This document shows positions 1-43,531 of a DNA stretch of 43,531 bases, piece after piece (position 1 is the stretch's first letter; each line of letters starts with the position of its first letter). Source of the DNA: a virus; IMG/VR virus record IMGVR_UViG_3300045988_130695, positions 1-43,531 of that record. The stretch is one strand, 5' to 3'. Below the pieces are notes generated by a model, which saw only the letters and a list, made by a program, of their open reading frames with translations, was not told where the DNA came from and made no database searches. Position numbers and translations under genes: made by a program.

Positions 1-45
1 CCTCCGGAGCCGTGTGCGGTGGTTCGATTCCACTCGGGCGTACCA
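1..45 (+). tRNA. 3' portion of a tRNA gene (T-stem/loop GGTGG-TTCGATT-CCACT, acceptor 3' strand CGGGCGT, discriminator A, encoded CCA); also the attL core. Isotype not determinable; the 5' part lies outside the window
   Basis: Canonical GGTTCGATTCC T-arm followed by 7 nt, then A and CCA. The extra sequence before the T-stem is compatible with a long variable arm. An exact copy is at 43487..43531. Confidence 0.8.
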
Positions 46-8004: not shown

Positions 8005-8742
8005 TCACTCCTGTTCTATAACTGGAAGTACGCCTTGGTTCTTCAATAAGTGATAAATAAATAAGCGTCCTTTCTGCGTCCAATAAGTATGAAATCTATT
8101 TTCACCGTCAGCAGTAGGAAAAGTCTTACTTTGGGTATATCCGTCACATTGATATTTTTCATACAGAAACCATATACCGCCTTGTTTATACTGAACACCT
8201 AATTCATGAAGCAGGCTATTCATTTTCTTTGCGCTCATACCATAGTCTTTTGCAATCTGCGTTACCGACATCAGAGTGTTGTTTTGCAGAATCAAATCAT
8301 AATAGCTTGCTTTAGGCTGCATTTCATTTATGATCTGCTTTTGCTGCGTATTTTCAATTTGTAGAGCCTGAGCTTTTTCTGCTATTTCAGCGGCCATTCT
8401 AAGAGCTGCCGGCAAATCTTTTGGAATTACTTCCTGCTCTTTTAACAATTCTTCCATTTTATTGAAAGCAGCAATATATTTTAGCTTCCATTGCAACGCA
8501 TCTTTACCGGTAAACCCCATTGCTAAAAGCGTAAAACCGTCACGGTTCATAAGGTACTCAGGAAATCTTTGCCCGCGATATTCGTGGATACTTTCCTGAT
8601 AAAATTTAGTGGCGGAATTTTCCGCCACTAAAATATTGCGAATATTTCCCAAAACGTCTTTATGTTGTTTACCAAACTTTTCAGCAACCTGCCGACTAGA
8701 AACAACTACCTGCCTATCAATGATTTGCACTAAATTTTCCAT
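8005..8742 (-). CDS. Antirepressor-type protein: Rha-family N-terminal domain plus KilAC/ANT C-terminal domain
   Basis: N-terminus VVSSRQVAEKFGKQHKDVLGNIRNIL (Rha motif). C-terminus SVTQIAKDYGMSAKKMNSLLHELGVQYKQGGIWFL (KilAC-like). Confidence 0.75.
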   Translation of the reverse strand: MENLVQIIDRQVVVSSRQVAEKFGKQHKDVLGNIRNILVAENSATKFYQESIHEYRGQRFPEYLMNRDGFTLLAMGFTGKDALQWKLKYIAAFNKMEELLKEQEVIPKDLPAALRMAAEIAEKAQALQIENTQQKQIINEMQPKASYYDLILQNNTLMSVTQIAKDYGMSAKKMNSLLHELGVQYKQGGIWFLYEKYQCDGYTQSKTFPTADGENRFHTYWTQKGRLFIYHLLKNQGVLPVIEQE

Positions 8743-8760
8743 AAATCGTCTCTCCTTCCA

Positions 8761-8790
8761 AATAAAAAAGCGCCTACCGAAGTAAGCGCT
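8761..8790 (-). terminator. Rho-independent terminator between the repeated motif copies and the Rha/KilAC gene
   Basis: On the - strand: AGCGCTTAC-TTCG-GTAGGCGCT, a 9-bp stem with a TTCG tetraloop, followed by TTTTTTATTT. Confidence 0.7.
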
Positions 8791-8818
8791 TTCTATTAAG
8801 TTCTAACTAACTTTATGA

Positions 8819-8855
8819 TACTATTTTAACTCATTTTTATAGTGGTTTTGTCGGA
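8819..8855 (-). promoter_or_regulatory. Conserved motif copy A: TCCGACA-N16-GAGTTAAAATAGTA with A/T-rich upstream tract (candidate late promoter)
   Basis: One of three copies with identical 16-nt spacing (also 8911..8947 and 31953..31989), all in gene orientation. Confidence 0.5.
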
Positions 8856-8910
8856 TACATTTTTAAATTTTTTTACATCGCCTCTGCTCTCATATCCAAT
8901 AACCTTACAT

Positions 8911-8947
8911 TACTATTTTAACTCTTGTTAAAGGGCATTTTGTCGGA
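8911..8947 (-). promoter_or_regulatory. Conserved motif copy B: TCCGACA-N16-GAGTTAAAATAGTA
   Basis: Same motif and spacing as copies A and C, preceded on the - strand by AAAATTTTAAAAAG. Confidence 0.5.
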
Positions 8948-8989
8948 AACTTTTTAAAATTTTAAATACCCAACAGGAAGGGAGTAGAT

Positions 8990-9880
8990 TTAACCGACAC
9001 CCTCGGCAGGAATTAAACTAAGCTTTGTATTGATTACATCAAGTGCATCACACGATATTTTTATACCTATGTCTTTTATTGTTGTGGCGAAGCATTGCGA
9101 TTTTTCAGGCGTGTTACAGTAGTTATAAAGTTTTAATACTTCATGCAAAGCAATCAGCTTGCCTTCTAAATCCTTTATCTTCTTCTGCAGCTCCATATTC
9201 ATAGGCGCATTAACAAGCATAGGTCTTTGTGGCTCACACGACGATTTTACTGGGAACAATTCAGCAGGTGTAAATTTTCGATTTCTCGCTTCGTATATCT
9301 TTCTAACTCCACTTTCGGTAAGTACTATTAAGGCAGCGATTGTAGACTTGATTTTATTCTCTCTGCGGTACTCGAATAAGTCATGTCCACGCAAAAAGTA
9401 AAAATCTACATTCTCTGTCATAAACCACGGTCTACGAATATAATTTTGAATCGCCGACGCATCAACATTTAAAATCATAGCTACGTCTAACTTAGTTAAC
9501 ACCGGTACGCCTTTCCAATATTTTACCGTAGGCTTATAAGGTTCTTCAATAAGTGTTTGCTGCAAAGGCTTTTTGCTTAGCTGTGCTTCCATTTCGTGAA
9601 AACGGTTGATATAAGATGCGGTAAACGACGATCCTTTGCGACCGGTTTGCTTATGAGCTAAAAACTCACAGCCTTTCTTGGTTATTTGATAGATTTTATA
9701 ACGTCTGCCAGTACCAGCTTTATAAGATGTTTCTTTGAAAAAATCATCAGAACCCAATTTTGGGTTTTGACCTAAATAGCTAATATAAGTATCAATATCT
9801 CTCAATAAATGGTCATGTCTTTTGTTAAGCATTACTGCTACTTCACGGCTGTCTAAAGTTAGTGTTTGCAAATTGTTCAT
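8990..9880 (-). CDS. Rha-family phage regulatory / antirepressor-like protein (296 aa)
   Basis: N-terminus LTLDSREVAVMLNKRHDHLLRDIDTYISYL (Rha motif). The C-terminal domain differs from that of the 8005..8742 paralogue. Confidence 0.7.
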   Translation of the reverse strand: MNNLQTLTLDSREVAVMLNKRHDHLLRDIDTYISYLGQNPKLGSDDFFKETSYKAGTGRRYKIYQITKKGCEFLAHKQTGRKGSSFTASYINRFHEMEAQLSKKPLQQTLIEEPYKPTVKYWKGVPVLTKLDVAMILNVDASAIQNYIRRPWFMTENVDFYFLRGHDLFEYRRENKIKSTIAALIVLTESGVRKIYEARNRKFTPAELFPVKSSCEPQRPMLVNAPMNMELQKKIKDLEGKLIALHEVLKLYNYCNTPEKSQCFATTIKDIGIKISCDALDVINTKLSLIPAEGVG

Positions 9881-30787: not shown

Positions 30788-31208
30788 CGCTATCCCCCTT
30801 CTTGCGACGGCTAGCAATTAAACCAGCAATATCGCCTTCAAGATTTACATCTAGTTGTTCTTTAAACAGCATATAGCGCTTACCCAATAATTCTGCTGCC
30901 TTAGTCCTGTCACTCAAGCTAGCATCTAATCCAAACTGGTCCTTTTCTTCTCCACGCATTACACTTGTTAAATATTCAAGAACATCTTCAGCTGTCGCAA
31001 TCTTATCACTATCAACTGCTGCCATTCGTGCATCTAAATATTGCTTTACCTTGTTATTTCTTAGCAATTTACTAGCACTAGCCGCCGCTGAATTATCATT
31101 CTTACACTTTGGATAAGCCTTTTTATAGGCTTCTGTTTGATTCCCACTCTCTATAAAGTAATCAACAAAATTCTTCTGTGCTTGGCTGATCTCATCCACT
31201 ACTATCAC
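30780..31208 (-). CDS. terS: Terminase small subunit (Terminase_2-like)
   Basis: QKNFVDYFIESGNQTEAYKKAYPKCKNDNSAAASASKLLRNNKVKQYL is the typical N-terminal HTH of this family. Overlaps the terL start. Confidence 0.75.
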   Translation of the reverse strand: MIVVDEISQAQKNFVDYFIESGNQTEAYKKAYPKCKNDNSAAASASKLLRNNKVKQYLDARMAAVDSDKIATAEDVLEYLTSVMRGEEKDQFGLDASLSDRTKAAELLGKRYMLFKEQLDVNLEGDIAGLIASRRKKGDSDV

Positions 31209-31491
31209 CTGCCTTTAATACATTCACCAAATAATACAGAATAGCTATTTCTCTAAATGACCGAGCCATTTCTACCCTAACGCTTACACCCTTATTCTTT
31301 TTTCGCTCTGCCTTATCCGGGAATTTCTTTTTGTATTCTCCCCATGGCATGAGGTAATCTATTCTGTACATAGTACATACCTTAGATAGCTTCTGGCTAT
31401 ATACTTGCTCCCTTGAATATAGGTATATAAAGCCTCTCATTTCTAAGGCTTTTATTATCTTCCTGATCTTGCTGGTTAGGTTCATCTTCAT
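31192..31491 (-). CDS. Hypothetical protein, first gene of the late operon (99 aa from MKMNLTSK..)
   Basis: GGTGGTGA SD before ATG 31491. The track start 31521 would run into the terminator stem. Confidence 0.5.
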   Translation of the reverse strand: MKMNLTSKIRKIIKALEMRGFIYLYSREQVYSQKLSKVCTMYRIDYLMPWGEYKKKFPDKAERKKNKGVSVRVEMARSFREIAILYYLVNVLKAGDSSG

Positions 31492-31507
31492 TCCATCACC
31501 ACCTTGC

Positions 31508-31542
31508 AAATAAAAAAGCAATGTGCAAATTATTCACATTGC
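31508..31542 (-). terminator. Rho-independent terminator 17 nt upstream of the first late-gene RBS
   Basis: On the - strand: GCAATGTG-(9 nt)-CACATTGC followed by TTTTTTATTT. Confidence 0.75.
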
Positions 31543-31950
31543 CAACAGTTTATATTAAGTTATATGCTAAATTCTGATATATATTACCGTGTTTCAACGG
31601 CTTTTTAAGACTAAATTATTTATGTAGATTAAATATGCCGCTGTATCACCCCAACGGTAAGGCTACCCCAAGTCTACAGATATGGTGCTCTGCGTTCTAT
31701 GGGCTTCTTCACGGGCTGCGTACAGTTACCGTCTCTCATGCCGTTGTTTTGAACCTACCAGTGCGACCGCTGCAAGCCGCACGGTAGGAGCTATGGGTAG
31801 TTATCCGCATCATTCATATGATAAATTGCAGCTATCATATGCCATCATACGGCGAACACCATAGCCAAATATATGCACATACGGTTTATAACTTGCTCGG
31901 ATAGTGAGCGGATTACTGCGTATGGCTTTATTGTAAGCCCACTTACTTAC
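31543..31950 (-). ncRNA. Candidate structured leader/ncRNA (about 400 nt, no credible ORF)
   Basis: Bounded by motif copy C upstream and the terminator downstream. The core is about 50% G+C against AT-rich flanks. Several strong local hairpins and long-range complementary segments. Strand and ends are inferred. Confidence 0.35.
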
Positions 31951-31952
31951 AA

Positions 31953-31989
31953 TACTATTTTAACTCATCAAAACAGGTAATATGTCGGA
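31953..31989 (-). promoter_or_regulatory. Conserved motif copy C: TCCGACA-N16-GAGTTAAAATAGTA directly downstream of the late-regulator gene
   Basis: Identical blocks and spacing to copies A and B. An A/T-rich tract lies upstream. Confidence 0.5.
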
Positions 31990-31997
31990 AACTTTTT

Positions 31998-32441
31998 TTA
32001 TTTTATCAAACCTTTTTTCAACGCCAAACCAACAGCATCCCTAAGGAACTCTTTGCGAAATTCATAACAAGTATCTCTATTCACACCGTTTAATTCTGCA
32101 ATTGTTTTCATCGGCTTCCTTTTTTCATATTTTTGATACATAACTTTACCAGTAAGCTGATTCTCATGTATCTTATAGGTTTCTGCGACAACTTCAAGCC
32201 ATAGCTCCGGGTTCATTATTATCGACTGATATGGTCCATATCCAAACGATATCATACGTACTGGCTCAATGTTTTTTAATGCTGCTGTTTCTGTTGGATT
32301 ACTGATAAAAGCATGCCCCCCACCGCCCGTATGCCCTTTCCTTGCAGTACGCTGCTCTTTTTCTTCATCAACAACTTTTTGTATTTGCTTACGATCCCAA
32401 AAGTATCGCTCTACATGCTTAATATACTGTTCTATTAGCAT
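31998..32441 (-). CDS. Late transcriptional regulator, RinA/ArpU-family-like (147 aa)
   Basis: Size, position just before the packaging genes, and C-terminal HTH-like KTIAELNGVNRDTCYEFRKEFLRDAVGLALKKG. Confidence 0.6.
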   Translation of the reverse strand: MLIEQYIKHVERYFWDRKQIQKVVDEEKEQRTARKGHTGGGGHAFISNPTETAALKNIEPVRMISFGYGPYQSIIMNPELWLEVVAETYKIHENQLTGKVMYQKYEKRKPMKTIAELNGVNRDTCYEFRKEFLRDAVGLALKKGLIK

Positions 32442-36645: not shown

Positions 36646-37269
36646 TCAAAACGGTTCTGACTTATTAGTGTTCAGATTCTCAAAATGTTCTTCCCCTAAA
36701 ATCTGTAGTTCTGCCATATCTGCAGCAAGGTTATATATTTTTGCATGCTTATTATTTCCATGTGTATCGGAAACCTTAGCTCTAAATTCGGCAATAGTCC
36801 CTAAGAAACAACCACAAGACACTGTTATACCTTTGTCTTTATTTTTGAAAAATGTCGTAAAACTAAATCTACTACCAATGCGACCGATCAATAAATAGTC
36901 AGCGTCGCCGTACACCCTAGCGTTGCCGCACACCCTAGCGTCGTCGCACACCCTAGCGTTGCCGCACACCTCAGCGTCGTCGCACACCCTAGCGTTGCCG
37001 AACACCCTAGCGTTGCCGCACACCCTAGCGTTGCCGAACACCTCAGCGTCGTCGCACACCTCAGCGTCGTCGCACACCCTAGCGTTGCCGAACACCCTAG
37101 CGTTGCCGTGCACCCAAGCGTTGTCGTCTTGCGCTAAGTTGTCCTCTTTTTCTACATATCCTCCAAGTTCACCAGCTTCAACATTTCCAAAGCTAATTAA
37201 AGCCTTAATCCTAAATAATTTCTTGCCCCATTTTTCTATAAACTCTGCTGTTAACTCATACTTTTTCAT
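36646..37269 (-). CDS. Hexapeptide-repeat (left-handed beta-helix-like) phage protein, 207 aa
   Basis: About 13 consecutive 6-aa units (GNARVF/GNARVC/DDAEVC), with conserved N- and C-terminal flanks seen in many Firmicute phages (from memory). AAGGAG SD. Confidence 0.7.
   Translation of the reverse strand: MKKYELTAEFIEKWGKKLFRIKALISFGNVEAGELGGYVEKEDNLAQDDNAWVHGNARVFGNARVCDDAEVCDDAEVFGNARVCGNARVFGNARVCDDAEVCGNARVCDDARVCGNARVYGDADYLLIGRIGSRFSFTTFFKNKDKGITVSCGCFLGTIAEFRAKVSDTHGNNKHAKIYNLAADMAELQILGEEHFENLNTNKSEPF
36896..37128. repeat. Tandem 18-bp DNA repeats (about 13 units, consensus CACCCTAGCGTTGCCGCA) encoding the hexapeptide repeats
   Basis: Read directly. Units differ at only 1-4 positions and fall into two alternating subtypes (..CCTAGCGTTGCCG.. 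and ..CTCAGCGTCGTCG..). Confidence 0.9.
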
Positions 37270-37943: not shown

Positions 37944-38648
37944 TCACCATGCCCATTCTTTTTTCTGCTCTGTAACACGTATCTCATCTTCCCAACGCCT
38001 ATCCTGCAAGAAGGTTTCAGGGTATGGAATATAAGCCCCGTTGCTTTCTTTCCAACGGCTTGTTTGCTTATACTGCTCAACAGCAGCTATGATTTTTTCA
38101 TACAGCTCCACACATGGATCAACCAGCTTGTTCCACTCGATTTTAGCTACAGGCTTTTTCACCTTCACTGGGTATGCTTCCCAGAATCGGGCAAAATATT
38201 CTTCCCGTTCACAGTCAGGCGCTTCTTGTTTCTTTTCGTTTTGTTTATTATTAATAATATTATTTATATATACTTTCTTCTCCGCGCGAGATTGTGTTAC
38301 AGGTTGTGTATCAGTTTGTGTTACAAGTTGTGTTACAGGTTGTGTATCAGTTTGTGTTCGGTATACGATACACAAATCAAATATCTGATAAAAACCTGAT
38401 CGACTACCTTTGCCGCCCTGGTATGAAATCAGCCCCATCTGAATTAGAGTATTCCTATGCCTACTTAATTCAGTCCGAGAAATTCCACACACCGATTGCA
38501 GCATCGTGCTGGACACGGTAAACTCTTTTTGCCAGCCGCCTAAATTGTTGAAATGCAATAATGCCATATACAAATCAGCAGCTCGACTATTAAGTTGGTT
38601 GAGTAACCGCCAGCTCCAAAACGCATTCATCTGTGCAACGTAGTTCAT
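37944..38648 (-). CDS. Replication initiation / replisome organizer protein (DnaD-like N-terminal winged HTH)
   Basis: N-terminus NAFWSWRLLNQLNSRAADLYMALLHFNNLGGW .. SRTELSRHRNTLIQMGLISY. It contains iterons and an AT-rich tract internally. Confidence 0.6.
   Translation of the reverse strand: MNYVAQMNAFWSWRLLNQLNSRAADLYMALLHFNNLGGWQKEFTVSSTMLQSVCGISRTELSRHRNTLIQMGLISYQGGKGSRSGFYQIFDLCIVYRTQTDTQPVTQLVTQTDTQPVTQSRAEKKVYINNIINNKQNEKKQEAPDCEREEYFARFWEAYPVKVKKPVAKIEWNKLVDPCVELYEKIIAAVEQYKQTSRWKESNGAYIPYPETFLQDRRWEDEIRVTEQKKEWAW
38293..38364. repeat. Six tandem 12-bp iterons (TGTGTTACAGGT / TGTGTATCAGTT ..) next to an AT-rich tract (38240..38280); candidate origin of replication
   Basis: Read directly. 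They encode the TQTDTQPVTQLV repeat of the organizer protein, an arrangement like lambda ori inside gene O. Confidence 0.6.
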
Positions 38649-42335: not shown

Positions 42336-43454
42336 ATGTACGGCGACGGAACAATATGGTACGACAAAGCACGAAAAAAATATTGTTACGACTATTGTGA
42401 CAACGACGGTAAACGTCACCGTAAACGCTTTGCCACCGAAAAAGAAGCCAAAGAATTTAAGAAAGAAATACGGGCAGAACGTGATAAAGGAAATCTTACA
42501 TCCTCTTCTATTACCATTGGAGAATGGGTAATAGAATTTTTAGAAACATATCAAAAACCACACCTGCGCAGCAACAGTTTTGCAAGGCAAAAACAAAGTG
42601 CTAATAAGCTTGCTCCTATTGCGCATATACCAATCGACCAACTCAGCGGCAAAGAAATACAAAAGCTGTATAATAGCTATGACGGTGTTTTAAGTACCTC
42701 TTCAATAAGTAAGATACATAAGTTACTTTTCGCCGCTTACAAGAAAGCTGTGGCTCTGAGAATGGTACAATATAATCCAATGCAAGCTGTTGAACCGGTG
42801 AAAATCAAATATAAAGAAATGTCAGTATTTTCTTTTAGTGAACTGCTTCGCATCTTCCGTGTACTACGGACCAATAAATACTATAAAAAATACTACACAT
42901 TATTTTATTTGCTCCTTGTACTTGGCTGCAGGATAGGTGAACTTCTTGCAATAAAATGGGAAGATATTGATTTTGATAAAAGAGAAATTTGTATACAACG
43001 CGCAAAAGACAGTGGTACTGGTCAAGTATTCCATGATCCTAAAACAAAAGCCGGTATACGTTATATTCCGATTGTCTATGATGCATGCATAGAAAGACTA
43101 AAAGCTATGCAGACAAGTGGTAAAATCACTTATATAAACGGCTTCGTATTTTGTACCGAAAGCGGCAAAGCCCTTAACTATGGAAATATCCGACGTGCTT
43201 GGGTAAAGATATGTGAGTTGGCCGGAGTAAATAAAAATATCCACACATTCAGGCATACATTTGCAACAGCAGCACTCACCAAAGATATACCCATCTTAGA
43301 AGTATCAAGGTGTCTTGGACACGCTGATGCAAACACAACACTTAAAATGTATGGACATGCAATGCCAGGATTTAACAGACATATAATAGACCTTTTTCAG
43401 AAGAAAAAAACAAAGAGTGCGACCAAAACTGCGACCGCAAATCAACAAAGCTAG
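42336..43454 (+). CDS. int: Tyrosine integrase
   Basis: Catalytic signature RIGELLA .. K .. HTFRHTF .. LGHAD .. KMYGH. It ends 32 nt before the attR core. Confidence 0.9.
   Translation: MYGDGTIWYDKARKKYCYDYCDNDGKRHRKRFATEKEAKEFKKEIRAERDKGNLTSSSITIGEWVIEFLETYQKPHLRSNSFARQKQSANKLAPIAHIPIDQLSGKEIQKLYNSYDGVLSTSSISKIHKLLFAAYKKAVALRMVQYNPMQAVEPVKIKYKEMSVFSFSELLRIFRVLRTNKYYKKYYTLFYLLLVLGCRIGELLAIKWEDIDFDKREICIQRAKDSGTGQVFHDPKTKAGIRYIPIVYDACIERLKAMQTSGKITYINGFVFCTESGKALNYGNIRRAWVKICELAGVNKNIHTFRHTFATAALTKDIPILEVSRCLGHADANTTLKMYGHAMPGFNRHIIDLFQKKKTKSATKTATANQQS
43416..43436 (+). repeat. 21-bp repeat AGTGCGACCAAAACTGCGACC (copy 2), inside the integrase C-terminal coding region; candidate arm-type site on the P arm
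   Basis: Exact match to 161..181, lying 50 nt upstream of the att core. Confidence 0.4.
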
Positions 43455-43486: not shown

Positions 43487-43531
43487 CCTCCGGAGCCGTG
43501 TGCGGTGGTTCGATTCCACTCGGGCGTACCA
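43487..43531 (+). repeat. attR core: duplicated 45-bp tRNA 3' end
   Basis: Identical to 1..45. It is preceded by phage (integrase-side) sequence, so this copy joins phage DNA to the host flank outside the window. Confidence 0.85.

What the first reader, a model, noticed from the sequence alone, without database searches (positions are those of the whole stretch)
31508..31997. ORF-free, GC-enriched, helix-rich leader of about 430 nt between the late regulator and the packaging genes, ending in an intrinsic terminator
Between the RinA/ArpU-like gene (stop at 31998) and the first late gene (ATG 31491) lie about 500 bp with no credible ORF. The only track ORF (31682..31864, +) is on the opposite strand and looks like junk.

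Read on the - strand, the region starts with motif copy C (31989..31953). It ends with a strong terminator, GCAATGTG..CACATTGC plus a T-run (31542..31508), only 17 nt before the late-gene SD.

The core (about 31640..31900) is about 50% G+C against AT-rich flanks. It contains:
- An 11-bp hairpin, CCTACC-GTGCG..CGCAC-T-GGTAGG (plus-strand coordinates about 31755..31789).
- A 9-bp perfect hairpin, CATATGATA..TATCATATG (about 31815..31841), extended by CCGTAT/ATGCGG.
- Long-range complementary pairs: ACGGTAA/TTACCGT, CTACCC/GGGTAG and TATGGTG/CACCATA.

The promoter - long structured RNA - terminator - late operon layout recalls lambda PR'-6S-tR'. It also recalls RNA-mediated processive antitermination (HK022 put). 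Alternatively it could be a novel phage ncRNA or a packaging (pac/cos) region.
Basis: partly seen in the sequence, partly recalled or inferred. Interest (0 to 1): 0.65.

Follow-up and report, generated by a model that had tools for sequence, protein, structure and literature searches.

The report
Modular structured RNA in prophage late leader
The gap between the late regulator and the packaging genes of this Phascolarctobacterium gut prophage is a transcribed leader carrying conserved folded RNA modules unknown to Rfam, in the slot where sister phages carry tRNA genes; the RNA looks like optional cargo, not a switch the late genes need.

Summary
Window 31506-31997 (- strand) has no credible ORF, a GC-rich core, the named hairpins and an intrinsic terminator 17 nt before the first late gene.

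In about 170 related loci from Phascolarctobacterium phages, the same leader is a collinear mosaic of 283-987 nt. The order is: promoter motif, 5' hairpin, optional RNA modules, universal hairpin D, optional tRNA-Ser pair or small ORFs, element E, terminator F. Relatives carry tRNA-Lys(UUU) among the RNA modules.

The window has modules B1a, B1b, B2 and C, then D, E and F, and no tRNA. Rfam matches nothing but the relatives' tRNAs.

Stems B2, D and G' keep pairing through compensatory and G.U changes on the transcribed strand.

B1-B2-C are absent from sister phages that share the promoter, terminator and packaging genes. They also occur behind other regulators. A put-like cis role and a pac/cos role are therefore unlikely.

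Best reading: a late-transcribed cargo ncRNA, most like GOLLD/ROOL in context but not a member of either. Both late promoters in the prophage are followed by a terminator, so read-through is needed; how it happens is unexplained.

The parts
31998..32441 (-). Late regulator gene (147 aa), sigma-region-4-like, in the position of RinA/ArpU-type (Ltr) activators
   Evidence: Weak phrog_248 'transcriptional activator' match, E = 1.7e-3. Weak HTH at residues 105-134. AF2 model pLDDT 81.7; Foldseek top hits are ECF sigma factors and sigma region 4 (3hug_K prob 0.99, TMt 0.80). 97-100% identical in 68 IMG/VR loci.
31953..31991 (-).
   Evidence: Three exact matches to TCCGACA-N16-GAGTTAAAAT in the window (8823-8855, 8915-8947, 31957-31989); 0.08 expected by chance. 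64-nt repeat family D3. Kept at DNA level even where the regulator ORF runs over it.
31931..31952 (-). 5' hairpin TTGTAAG-TAAGTGGG-CTTACAA at or near the transcript start
   Evidence: dG -8.5 kcal/mol. Present in nearly all leaders that follow the 147-aa type of regulator.
31875..31924 (-). Module B1a: stem CATACG/CGTATG enclosing the GCTC/GAGC hairpin
   Evidence: Helices 98-100% paired in 45 distinct sequences. One U-A to C-G double change in the GCTC/GAGC stem, in L071.
31790..31866 (-). Module B1b: long irregular hairpin (GCTATGG/CCATAGC, CCGTAT/ATGCGG, CATATGATA/TATCATATG) with apical loop GCUGCAAUU (31832-31824)
   Evidence: dG -32.2 kcal/mol. 96-100% of cells paired. Nearly all changes are wobble-compatible on the - strand only. 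The loop is nearly invariant.
31754..31788 (-). Module B2: hairpin CCTACC-GTGCGGC-UUGCAGCG-GTCGCAC-T-GGTAGG; its loop (31775-31768) is complementary to the B1b loop
   Evidence: dG -22.4 kcal/mol. 6 of 12 pairs show changes on both sides. The inner stem is fully replaced in the L160 type while the loop core UGCAGC is kept. 7-nt loop-loop complementarity has P about 3.4e-4 per loop pair.
31654..31744 (-). Module C, closed by ACGGTAA/TTACCGT. An alternative to module G of relatives. Its 3' end is fused to D by a deletion between repeated CCGTTGGGG(T/C)GA
   Evidence: 12 distinct versions with only 4-5 substitutions, so covariation cannot be tested. L060, L087, L131 and L138 keep a spacer hairpin GGGGCGAAACCC that the window lacks. 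In the window the closing stem overlaps the 5' arm of D.
31638..31657 (-). Hairpin D: CCGTTG-GGGTGATA-CAGCGG, present in nearly all the complete leaders
   Evidence: Variants CCGCTG/CAGCGG, CCGTTG/CAACGG, CCGTTG/CGGCGG, GCTGTA/TATAGC, GCTATA/TATAGC and CCCTGTTG/CAGCAGGG all still pair. These include C-G to G-C, G-C to U-A and U.G to G.U changes.
31548..31627 (-). Element E: AT-rich conserved segment (AAACACGGTAATATATATCA..TTTAGCATATAACTTAATA). Cassettes insert just upstream of it in relatives
   Evidence: 84-100% identical in most leaders, whatever the terminase type. No function assigned.
31506..31542 (-). Intrinsic terminator F: GCAATGTG-AATAATTT-CACATTGC plus TTTTTTATTTGC
   Evidence: dG -11.1 kcal/mol. 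Relatives have an unrelated hairpin (GCACTTAAC-TTCG-GTTAGGTGC) followed by the same T-run and SD. The hairpin type travels with the packaging module.
31192..31505 (-). SD (AAGGTGGTGA) and first late gene (99 aa, ATG 31491), followed by TerS, TerL and portal
   Evidence: ORF list. TerS PF03592, portal PF12236, TerL phrog_2/5902.
8754..8963 (-). Second late locus: two copies of the promoter motif, then terminator GCGCTTAC-TTCG-GTAGGCGC plus TTTTTTATTTGGAAGG, then SD and ATG 8742 (Ant/Rha-like gene, then tail fibre genes)
   Evidence: (dG -17.1 kcal/mol).

Best explanation
Window 31506-31997 is the transcribed leader of the packaging and structural operon of a temperate Phascolarctobacterium phage. 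In this phage lineage that leader is a slot for RNA genes and small accessory genes.

**Proposed sequence of events**
1. The sigma-region-4-like late regulator (31998-32441) directs RNA polymerase to TCCGACA-N16-GAGTTAAAAT (inferred).
2. The transcript starts near 31950 with a 5' hairpin (inferred).
3. It then carries four folded modules: B1a, B1b, B2 and C (31924-31654).
4. Next come hairpin D, which nearly all relatives keep, and element E.
5. It either ends at intrinsic terminator F, giving a discrete RNA of about 440 nt, or reads through into the late genes (inferred).

**What is shown and what is inferred**
- Shown: the modules are evolutionarily maintained RNA structures on this strand.
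- Shown: they are optional and portable. They are independent of the regulator type and of the terminase type.
- Shown: they sit exactly where sister phages carry tRNA-Lys(UUU) and tRNA-Ser genes.
- Inferred: they are therefore most likely cargo, that is, a late-expressed structured non-coding RNA that acts in trans.
- Inferred: the RNA folds into a compact or self-associating particle through a kissing interaction between the B1b loop (GCUGCAA) and the B2 loop (UUGCAGC).
- Unknown: its target.

The closest analogy by context is the class of phage-borne structured RNAs found beside tRNA islands (GOLLD, ROOL).
For: **Transcription context**
- The promoter-like motif occurs three times, each upstream of late genes.
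- The regulator is sigma-4-like.
- The leader-plus-terminator layout is kept in all relatives.

**RNA-level selection**
- 98.3% of 2136 cells are paired, against 17-43% in the slid controls.
- 9 pairs show changes on both sides; 0 of 500 shuffles reach this.
- Hairpins D and G' keep pairing through many double changes.
- The G.U pairs exist only on the - strand.

**Loops**
- The B1b and B2 loops are nearly invariant while their stems change.
- They are complementary over 7 nt (P about 3.4e-4 per loop pair).
- The three loop variants that occur in the 5-bp core or at its G-C end (GCUGUAA, UUGCAGU(A/G)) keep pairing by wobble.

**Optional and portable**
- Module order is collinear, with presence or absence varying across 171 loci.
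- The same packaging module occurs with other leaders (L023, L033, L039, L037, L052).
- The same leader occurs with a 47-50% identical terminase (L068).
- B1-B2 occurs behind DUF1492/ArpU-like regulators.

**Same slot as tRNAs**.

**Not a known family**: Rfam gives only tRNA hits.

**Known parallel**: GOLLD and ROOL are phage or prophage RNAs near tRNA islands that use kissing loops (PMC12286853, PMC5737381).
Against: - There are no expression data. The transcript ends, processing and abundance are all inferred.
- All relatives are close (mostly above 85% identity in the modules), so covariation power is modest. The CM-fitted alignment (A4) leans towards the structure.
- The 5-bp core of the kissing loop never varies, so it is not proven by covariation. 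In many relatives one of the 7 pairs is an A.A mismatch.
- Module C shows almost no variation and cannot be tested.
- In the window, a deletion makes the closing stem of C and hairpin D mutually exclusive. Deletion derivatives are common, including an internally deleted tRNA-Lys. This fits a region under weak constraint.
- The most diverged homolog (L071) can be hand-aligned to give compensatory changes in B1b, but its MFE fold prefers an alternative pairing.
- No trans target is known.
Confidence: 0.5

Rival explanations
1. Cis-acting regulatory leader. The folded RNA acts on the transcribing polymerase or on terminator F (put-like processive antitermination, or an attenuator), or it stabilises the long late mRNA, and so controls late-gene expression.
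For: - It lies between the promoter motif and a terminator that sits 17 nt before the SD.
- Both late promoters of the prophage are followed by terminators, so some read-through mechanism is needed.
- The 5' hairpin and hairpin D are near-universal, and D shows strong covariation.
- No Q-like or other antiterminator protein was recognised among the early genes.
Against: - B1-B2-C are absent from sister phages with the same regulator and promoter, an F-type terminator and a 95-99% identical packaging module.
- The second late locus has a terminator but no such RNA and no D hairpin.
- The F hairpin type changes with the packaging module, with no matching change in the leader, so no antiterminator pairing is evident.
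- At most the universal parts (5' hairpin, D, E) could play this role, not the GC-rich core that the finding is about.
Confidence: 0.17
2. Decaying relic. The core is what remains of a larger tRNA and ncRNA island (x-B1-B2-G-G'-tRNA-Lys-H-D) after deletions at short repeats. In this prophage it is transcribed but no longer does anything.
For: - The collinear presence-or-absence pattern is what successive deletions from a longer ancestor would give.
- An internally deleted tRNA-Lys occurs in L013, L044 and L064.
- The window's C-D junction is a deletion between repeated CCGTTGGGG(T/C)GA. It removes G' and makes two stems mutually exclusive.
- Sequence conservation could partly reflect recent common ancestry.
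Against: - The window-type leader is the commonest form (25 loci) and is 100% identical in at least 10 contigs.
- B1-B2 is kept at over 90% identity next to flanks that are unrelated.
- Stems keep pairing through compensatory changes, and the loops are invariant.
- These points indicate purifying selection, at least on B1b, B2 and D.
Confidence: 0.2
3. DNA-level element. The inverted repeats are protein-binding or cleavage sites (pac/cos, or a recombination linker at a module boundary) with no RNA role.
For: - The position is just upstream of terS.
- The region is a mosaic boundary between the conserved early module and the exchangeable packaging modules.
- Short direct repeats flank the cassettes.
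Against: - Modules do not co-vary with TerS or TerL type: the same leader occurs with a 47-50% identical terminase (L068), and the same terminase occurs with other leaders.
- Stem variation is dominated by G.U-compatible changes on one strand. These would be A.C mismatches in the other strand or in a DNA cruciform.
- The modules are dispensable in sister phages.
Confidence: 0.05

Closest known systems
GOLLD and ROOL RNAs (large ornate phage or prophage RNAs near tRNA islands)
   Same: - Encoded in a prophage.
- Sits in the very slot where sister phages carry tRNA genes, and in relatives a tRNA lies between the modules.
- Has many hairpins with conserved loops, and a candidate kissing loop.
- Function unknown.
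- Distribution is optional.
   Different: - No match to any Rfam model, including at E <= 10 with permissive filters.
- Much smaller: about 290 nt in the window, and about 400-500 nt in the longest relatives including the tRNA.
- Built of separable modules that occur in different combinations.
- Known so far only from Phascolarctobacterium phages.
Lambda PR'-6S RNA-tR' late leader, and the tRNA/moron slot of Stx phages (from established knowledge)
   Same: A late promoter is followed by a non-coding leader and an intrinsic terminator ahead of the late genes. The same region collects tRNA genes and accessory genes.
   Different: - The regulator is sigma-region-4-like (Ltr/RinA/ArpU type), not a Q protein.
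- No pause or QBE element has been shown.
- The tRNAs lie upstream of the terminator here.
- Lambda 6S RNA is not an elaborate conserved fold.
HK022 put RNA (RNA-mediated processive antitermination; from established knowledge)
   Same: Structured RNA immediately downstream of a phage promoter and upstream of terminators.
   Different: - put is a compact two-stem element that is required in cis.
- Here the GC-rich modules are optional, and they are absent from the second late locus, which has the same terminator design.
Ltr superfamily late activators (RinA, ArpU, LtrA/B/C) and their terS control regions (PMC3152322, PMC3753634)
   Same: - A small regulator gene lies directly upstream of terS.
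- The regulator has a sigma-region-4-like DNA-binding part.
- Sister phages use a DUF1492 (LtrB-type) protein at the same place.
   Different: [quoted passage not shown]
- Here the promoter-like motif abuts the regulator's stop codon. The terminator lies 430 nt further on, directly before the SD.
- No long structured leader or tRNA slot is described for those phages.
phi29 pRNA (from established knowledge)
   Different: - pRNA is essential for packaging and specific to phi29-like phages.
- Here the RNA is dispensable in sister phages with the same packaging genes.
- There is no Rfam match.

Membership tests
ROOL / GOLLD RNA (Rfam families) | Match to the family covariance model | tested here: not met
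   cmscan at gathering threshold on the window and 8 relatives, and at E <= 10 on the window leader, L073 and L042, gave only tRNA hits in relatives.
ROOL / GOLLD RNA (Rfam families) | Phage or prophage location next to tRNA genes | tested here: met
   The window is a prophage bounded by att repeats. Relatives have tRNA-Lys and two tRNA-Ser genes in the same leader. The window itself has no tRNA.
ROOL / GOLLD RNA (Rfam families) | Size above about 500 nt with multistem junctions and pseudoknots | tested here: not met
   The window modules span about 290 nt (31638-31924). They form serial hairpins plus one candidate loop-loop contact.
HK022 put-type antiterminator RNA | Promoter-proximal structured RNA upstream of terminators | tested here: met
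HK022 put-type antiterminator RNA | Required in cis, hence present wherever the same promoter and terminator system is used | tested here: not met
   B1-B2-C are absent in L023, L033, L039, L037, L052, L013, L015 and L045, and at the second late locus.
HK022 put-type antiterminator RNA | Direct modification of RNA polymerase to a terminator-resistant form | not testable with these tools
   Needs in vitro transcription or reporter assays.
Lambda Q-type late antitermination | Terminator between the late promoter and the late genes | tested here: met
   F at 31506-31542 and a second terminator at 8754-8789, each after the promoter motif.
Lambda Q-type late antitermination | Q-family antiterminator protein | tested here: not met
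   The regulator has no Pfam or NCBIfam hit to a Q family, and its fold matches sigma region 4. The early ORFs that were scanned (not all of them) gave no antiterminator PHROG.
Ltr (RinA/ArpU/LtrA-C) late activators | HMM match to a family model at its curated threshold | tested here: not met
   The 147-aa protein has only phrog_248 at E = 1.7e-3 and sub-threshold HTH hits. The 137-aa protein of sister phages passes the DUF1492 gathering score (35.2 bits against 21.5) and has weak ArpU and RinA hits.
Ltr (RinA/ArpU/LtrA-C) late activators | Gene directly upstream of terS, with a sigma-region-4-like DNA-binding part | tested here: met
   Gene order. Foldseek 3hug_K prob 0.99, TMt 0.80, rmsd 2.2 over 72 columns. 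E-values are weak (0.25-1).
tRNA / tmRNA | Cloverleaf detected by ARAGORN or the Rfam tRNA model | tested here: not met
   None in the window. They are present only in relatives.
pac/cos packaging site | Co-variation with the terminase that recognises it | tested here: not met
   The same leader occurs with a 47-50% identical TerS and TerL (L068), and other leaders occur with 95-99% identical TerS and TerL.

The most novel reading that the evidence does not exclude
B1-B2, with or without C and D, is a new small 'ornate' phage RNA. It would be a miniature, modular counterpart of the ROOL and GOLLD cages, travelling with tRNA genes as exchangeable cargo that acts on the host, for example on translation or on an anti-phage defence.
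Probability: 0.15. Interest if true: 0.8.

Novelty: new variant of a known kind. Interest (0 to 1): 0.58.

Why it matters
Phage-borne structured RNAs that sit beside tRNA genes (GOLLD, ROOL) are among the largest unexplained bacterial RNAs, and their function is a long-standing open question.

This leader offers a smaller and modular case. It comes from an abundant human-gut bacterium and has many natural deletion and swap variants: with or without tRNA-Lys, tRNA-Ser, B1-B2, C, G and H. These variants amount to a ready-made genetic dissection.

It also shows a late-gene design in which both late promoters, apparently served by a sigma-like activator, are followed by a terminator. That design is not explained by the RinA/ArpU paradigm. 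It points to an unidentified read-through mechanism.

Tried and rejected
**Searches that found nothing useful**
- Rfam at the gathering threshold and at E <= 10, on the window and on relatives, gave nothing except tRNAs. The weak microRNA, snoRNA and sRNA hits are chance or matches to the terminator.
- blastn of the leader against 50,697 GenBank phages gave no match.
- ARAGORN found no tRNA or tmRNA in the window.
- A loose gapped pattern for B1b-B2 in IMG/VR returned only the known phage group plus random coding hits. The family is therefore narrow in these collections.
- About ten high-GC hits in the metagenome scan were random.

**Readings rejected**
- Small peptide in module C (21 aa): rejected. 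There is no SD, and 3 of the 4 substitutions are non-synonymous.
- The + strand ORF 31682-31864: rejected. Relatives have indels in it, and the G.U pattern points to the - strand.
- tRNA-like reading of B1b (7-bp basal stem, plus a T-arm-like insertion in L031, L119, L123 and L128): rejected. The inserted arm is on the wrong side of the long hairpin for a cloverleaf.
- HDV-like or theta-like ribozyme reading of module H next to tRNA-Lys in relatives: no support from Rfam or by eye. H is not present in the window in any case.
- Antiterminator pairing between the leader and terminator F: rejected. The F hairpin is replaced by an unrelated one with no change in the leader.
- A sigma-70 promoter with its -10 in the loop of F: rejected. 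It is not conserved in the alternative F.

**Left ambiguous or empty**
- The hand alignment of L071 B1b gives compensatory changes, but the MFE fold of L071 prefers another pairing. This evidence is ambiguous.
- A search for an antiterminator protein among the early genes found none. One batch failed on a bad coordinate, and several early ORFs were never scanned.
Full report
**1. The observation**

The window is a prophage on the - strand. It is bounded by a 45-bp direct repeat that carries a tRNA 3' end.

Between the stop codon of a 147-aa gene (31998) and the ATG of the first late gene (31491) there is no credible ORF on either strand. G+C rises to 0.47-0.57 in 31650-31850, against 0.26-0.34 in the flanks.

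The 501-nt stretch folds better than every one of 100 shuffles on both strands (z = -4.7 and -4.2).

**2. Known families**

Rfam gives nothing for the window, either at the gathering threshold or at E <= 10. ARAGORN finds no tRNA or tmRNA. The leader has no blastn match among GenBank phages.

**3. Relatives and host**

The 147-aa protein is 97-100% identical in 68 IMG/VR contigs from human-gut samples. It is 98% identical in a prophage of Phascolarctobacterium faecium DSM 14760. Homologs at 62-84% identity exist in other assemblies.

Downstream of this nearly invariant gene, two things vary:
- The leader has 37 distinct versions among these 68 contigs, 283-987 nt long.
- The packaging modules range from 28% to 100% TerL identity.

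DNA-pattern scans for the B2 and B1a cores added about 100 further loci. These include phages in which the same RNA follows a different regulator.

**4. Anatomy of the leader**

Across 171 loci the parts are always collinear:
- promoter motif
- 5' hairpin
- [x]
- [B1a-B1b-B2]
- [C or G]
- [G']
- [tRNA-Lys(UUU), or an internally deleted remnant of it, or module Y]
- [H]
- hairpin D
- [tRNA-Ser(UGA) plus tRNA-Ser(GCU), or small ORFs]
- element E
- [ORF]
- terminator F, then the SD

Items in brackets are optional. The tRNAs are genuine, at 64-66 bits against the Rfam tRNA model.

The window carries the commonest version: 5' hairpin, B1a, B1b, B2, C, D, E, F. This version is found in 25 loci and is 100% identical in at least 10 contigs.

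Its C-D junction is a deletion between repeated CCGTTGGGG(T/C)GA. Relatives L060, L087, L131 and L138 keep a spacer hairpin there, and L019, L011 and L070 keep G'. In the window, the closing stem of C (ACGGTAA/TTACCGT) and the 5' arm of D therefore overlap.

**5. Are the folds selected?**

I counted pairs myself on 44 distinct B1-B2 sequences. I then ran the pair-count tool on a MAFFT alignment (A1) and on a covariance-model alignment of 45 distinct sequences (A4).

On A4:
- 98.3% of cells are paired, against 17-43% when the partners are slid.
- 9 pairs carry changes on both sides, and 0 of 500 shuffles reach that number.
- Six of those pairs are in B2.

Caveats: the sequences are close relatives, the structure was derived from the window sequence, and A4 is fitted to the model.

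Independent support comes from whole-stem replacements:
- **B2.** The inner stem GTGCGGC/GTCGCAC becomes CGGT/ACCG in the L160 type, while the loop core UGCAGC stays. The outer stem CCTACC/GGTAGG becomes CCTATC/GATAG(T)G in the L110 type, and CCACC/GGTGG in L169.
- **D.** CCGTTG/CAGCGG appears as CCGCTG/CAGCGG, CCGTTG/CAACGG, CCGTTG/CGGCGG, GCTGTA/TATAGC, GCTATA/TATAGC and CCCTGTTG/CAGCAGGG.
- **G'** (absent from the window). It shows C-G to U-A and G-C to U-A changes, and an almost fully rewritten stem in L070.

Most single changes are G.U-compatible on the - strand only. This points to an RNA made from the - strand, not a DNA palindrome or an antisense RNA. Module C hardly varies and cannot be tested.

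**6. A new feature: complementary loops**

- The chance of this for one loop pair is about 3.4e-4. Allowing for the 30-45 loop pairs in the leader, that is roughly 0.01.
- The 5-bp core GCUGC/GCAGC is invariant in 44 sequences, while the stems beneath both loops change.
- The variants GCUGUAA (L098, L168) and UUGCAGU(A/G) (L071, L176) keep pairing by wobble.
- In 16 of the 44 sequences one outer pair is an A.A mismatch.

This is a candidate kissing loop, within one molecule or between molecules. It is not proven.

**7. What the core is not**

- **Not required in cis for late-gene expression.**
  - L023, L033, L039, L037 and L052 have the same regulator and promoter motif, an F-type terminator and a 95-99% identical TerS and TerL. 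They lack B1-B2-C and carry G'-D-tRNA-Ser instead.
  - L013, L015 and L045 have minimal leaders.
- **Not tied to the terminase.** L068 has the identical leader in front of a TerS and TerL that are 47-50% identical.
- **Not tied to the regulator.** In L080, L081, L084, L098, L133 and L137 the RNA follows a 137-aa DUF1492/ArpU/RinA/sigma-like protein. In L085 and L119 it follows other small proteins. It is always ahead of TerS or TerL.

These facts argue against a put-like antiterminator and against a pac/cos site. They fit portable cargo, like the tRNAs and small ORFs that share the slot.

**8. The promoter-terminator design**

The regulator's AF2 model (pLDDT 81.7) matches ECF sigma factors and sigma region 4. 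The best domain hit is 3hug_K, prob 0.99 and TMt 0.80. The E-values are weak. This agrees with the Ltr superfamily of late activators, which includes RinA, ArpU, LtrA (sigma70_r4) and LtrB (DUF1492) (PMC3753634).

In that paradigm the terminator lies between the regulator gene and the terS promoter. Here the promoter-like motif abuts the regulator's stop codon, and the terminator lies directly before the SD.

The second late locus repeats the design: motif, motif, terminator (dG -17.1 kcal/mol), then the same TTTTTTATTTG-AAGG tail, then an Ant/Rha-like gene and tail fibre genes.

Three unrelated hairpins followed by the same T-run and SD suggest a conserved terminator function. No Q-like protein was recognised. 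How late transcription passes these terminators is unexplained. The candidates are partial read-through, an unrecognised factor, or the universal 5' hairpin and D. It does not depend on B1-B2-C.

**9. Best explanation and rivals**

| Reading | Confidence |
|---|---|
| Late-transcribed cargo ncRNA acting in trans | about 0.5 |
| Relic of a larger tRNA/ncRNA island with no present function | 0.2 |
| Cis-regulatory leader | 0.17 |
| DNA-level site | 0.05 |

Under the best reading, the leader is transcribed from the late promoter. It yields a discrete RNA of about 440 nt ending at F, or processed pieces, plus read-through mRNA. B1a-B1b-B2-C are cargo ncRNA modules that act in trans and may be compacted or oligomerised by the B1b-B2 loop contact.

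The closest known analogues by context are GOLLD and ROOL. Both are phage or prophage RNAs near tRNA islands that use kissing loops, and their function is unknown (PMC12286853, PMC5737381). Membership of either is excluded by the Rfam tests and by size.

**10. Novelty**

This is a structured RNA family that Rfam does not hold. So far it is confined to Phascolarctobacterium phages, and it has an unusual modular and collinear architecture. It is a new variant of the known kind 'phage-borne structured RNA associated with tRNA genes'.

Noticed in passing
window 1-45 and 43487-43531; 42336-43454 (+): A perfect 45-bp direct repeat at both window ends contains a tRNA T-arm and acceptor 3' end (GGTTCGATTCC...CCA). 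These are attL and attR of a prophage integrated into a tRNA gene. An integrase-sized ORF lies next to one end.
   Followed up: partly
window 8754-8963 (-): Two further copies of the late promoter motif lie 92 nt apart. A strong terminator (dG -17.1 kcal/mol) and the same TTTTTTATTTG-AAGG tail follow, directly before an Ant/Rha-like gene (8005-8742) and tail fibre genes. A second Ant/Rha-like gene (8990-9880) lies just upstream.
   Followed up: partly
window 36865-37170: Twelve tandem copies of an 18-nt unit lie inside ORF 36646-37269 (phrog_7964, function unknown). This would be a 6-residue protein repeat.
   Followed up: no
window 38292-38358: Iteron-like 12-nt repeats (TTGTGTTACAGG and variants) lie inside the replication-initiator gene 37944-38648 (phrog_270). 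This is probably the phage origin.
   Followed up: no
L013, L044 and L064 leaders; L021, L012, L011 and others: Relatives carry tRNA-Lys(UUU) inside the leader. Some carry only an internally deleted remnant (CCCGTGTAGCTCAGACCACGGGTA). Where module H is present it directly follows the tRNA or its remnant.
   Followed up: partly
L031, L119, L123 and L128 (B1b): A 20-nt insertion, GGTCGCAGGTTCAAGTCCTG, which looks like the variable-loop and T-arm part of the phage tRNA-Lys, sits in the 5' strand of the B1b hairpin. It may be a recombination scar with a tRNA gene.
   Followed up: no
L080, L081, L085, L098, L166 and L042, just 5' of B1a: A TATAAC or TTTGATATAAC box lies 1 nt upstream of CATACG in phages with other regulators, and is duplicated in L042. 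It could be an own (extended -10) promoter for the RNA. The window has AATAAAGC there instead.
   Followed up: no
window 31548-31627 (element E): The AT-rich element with core AAACACGGTAATATATATCA..TTTAGCATATAACTTAATA is conserved across phages with unrelated terminases. No hairpin covariation or convincing promoter was found in it. Cassettes are inserted next to TTTAAT repeats at its 5' edge.
   Followed up: partly
L015, L019, L020, L023, L074 and others, between D and E: A pair of tRNA-Ser genes (UGA and GCU) 3 nt apart, or alternatively small ORFs (about 55-aa membrane-like, or about 60-aa), occupy a second cassette site that is empty in the window.
   Followed up: partly
window 31192-31491 (-): The first late gene (99 aa) has no Pfam, PHROG or NCBIfam match, but it precedes TerS in many of these phages (79-100% identity).
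   Followed up: no
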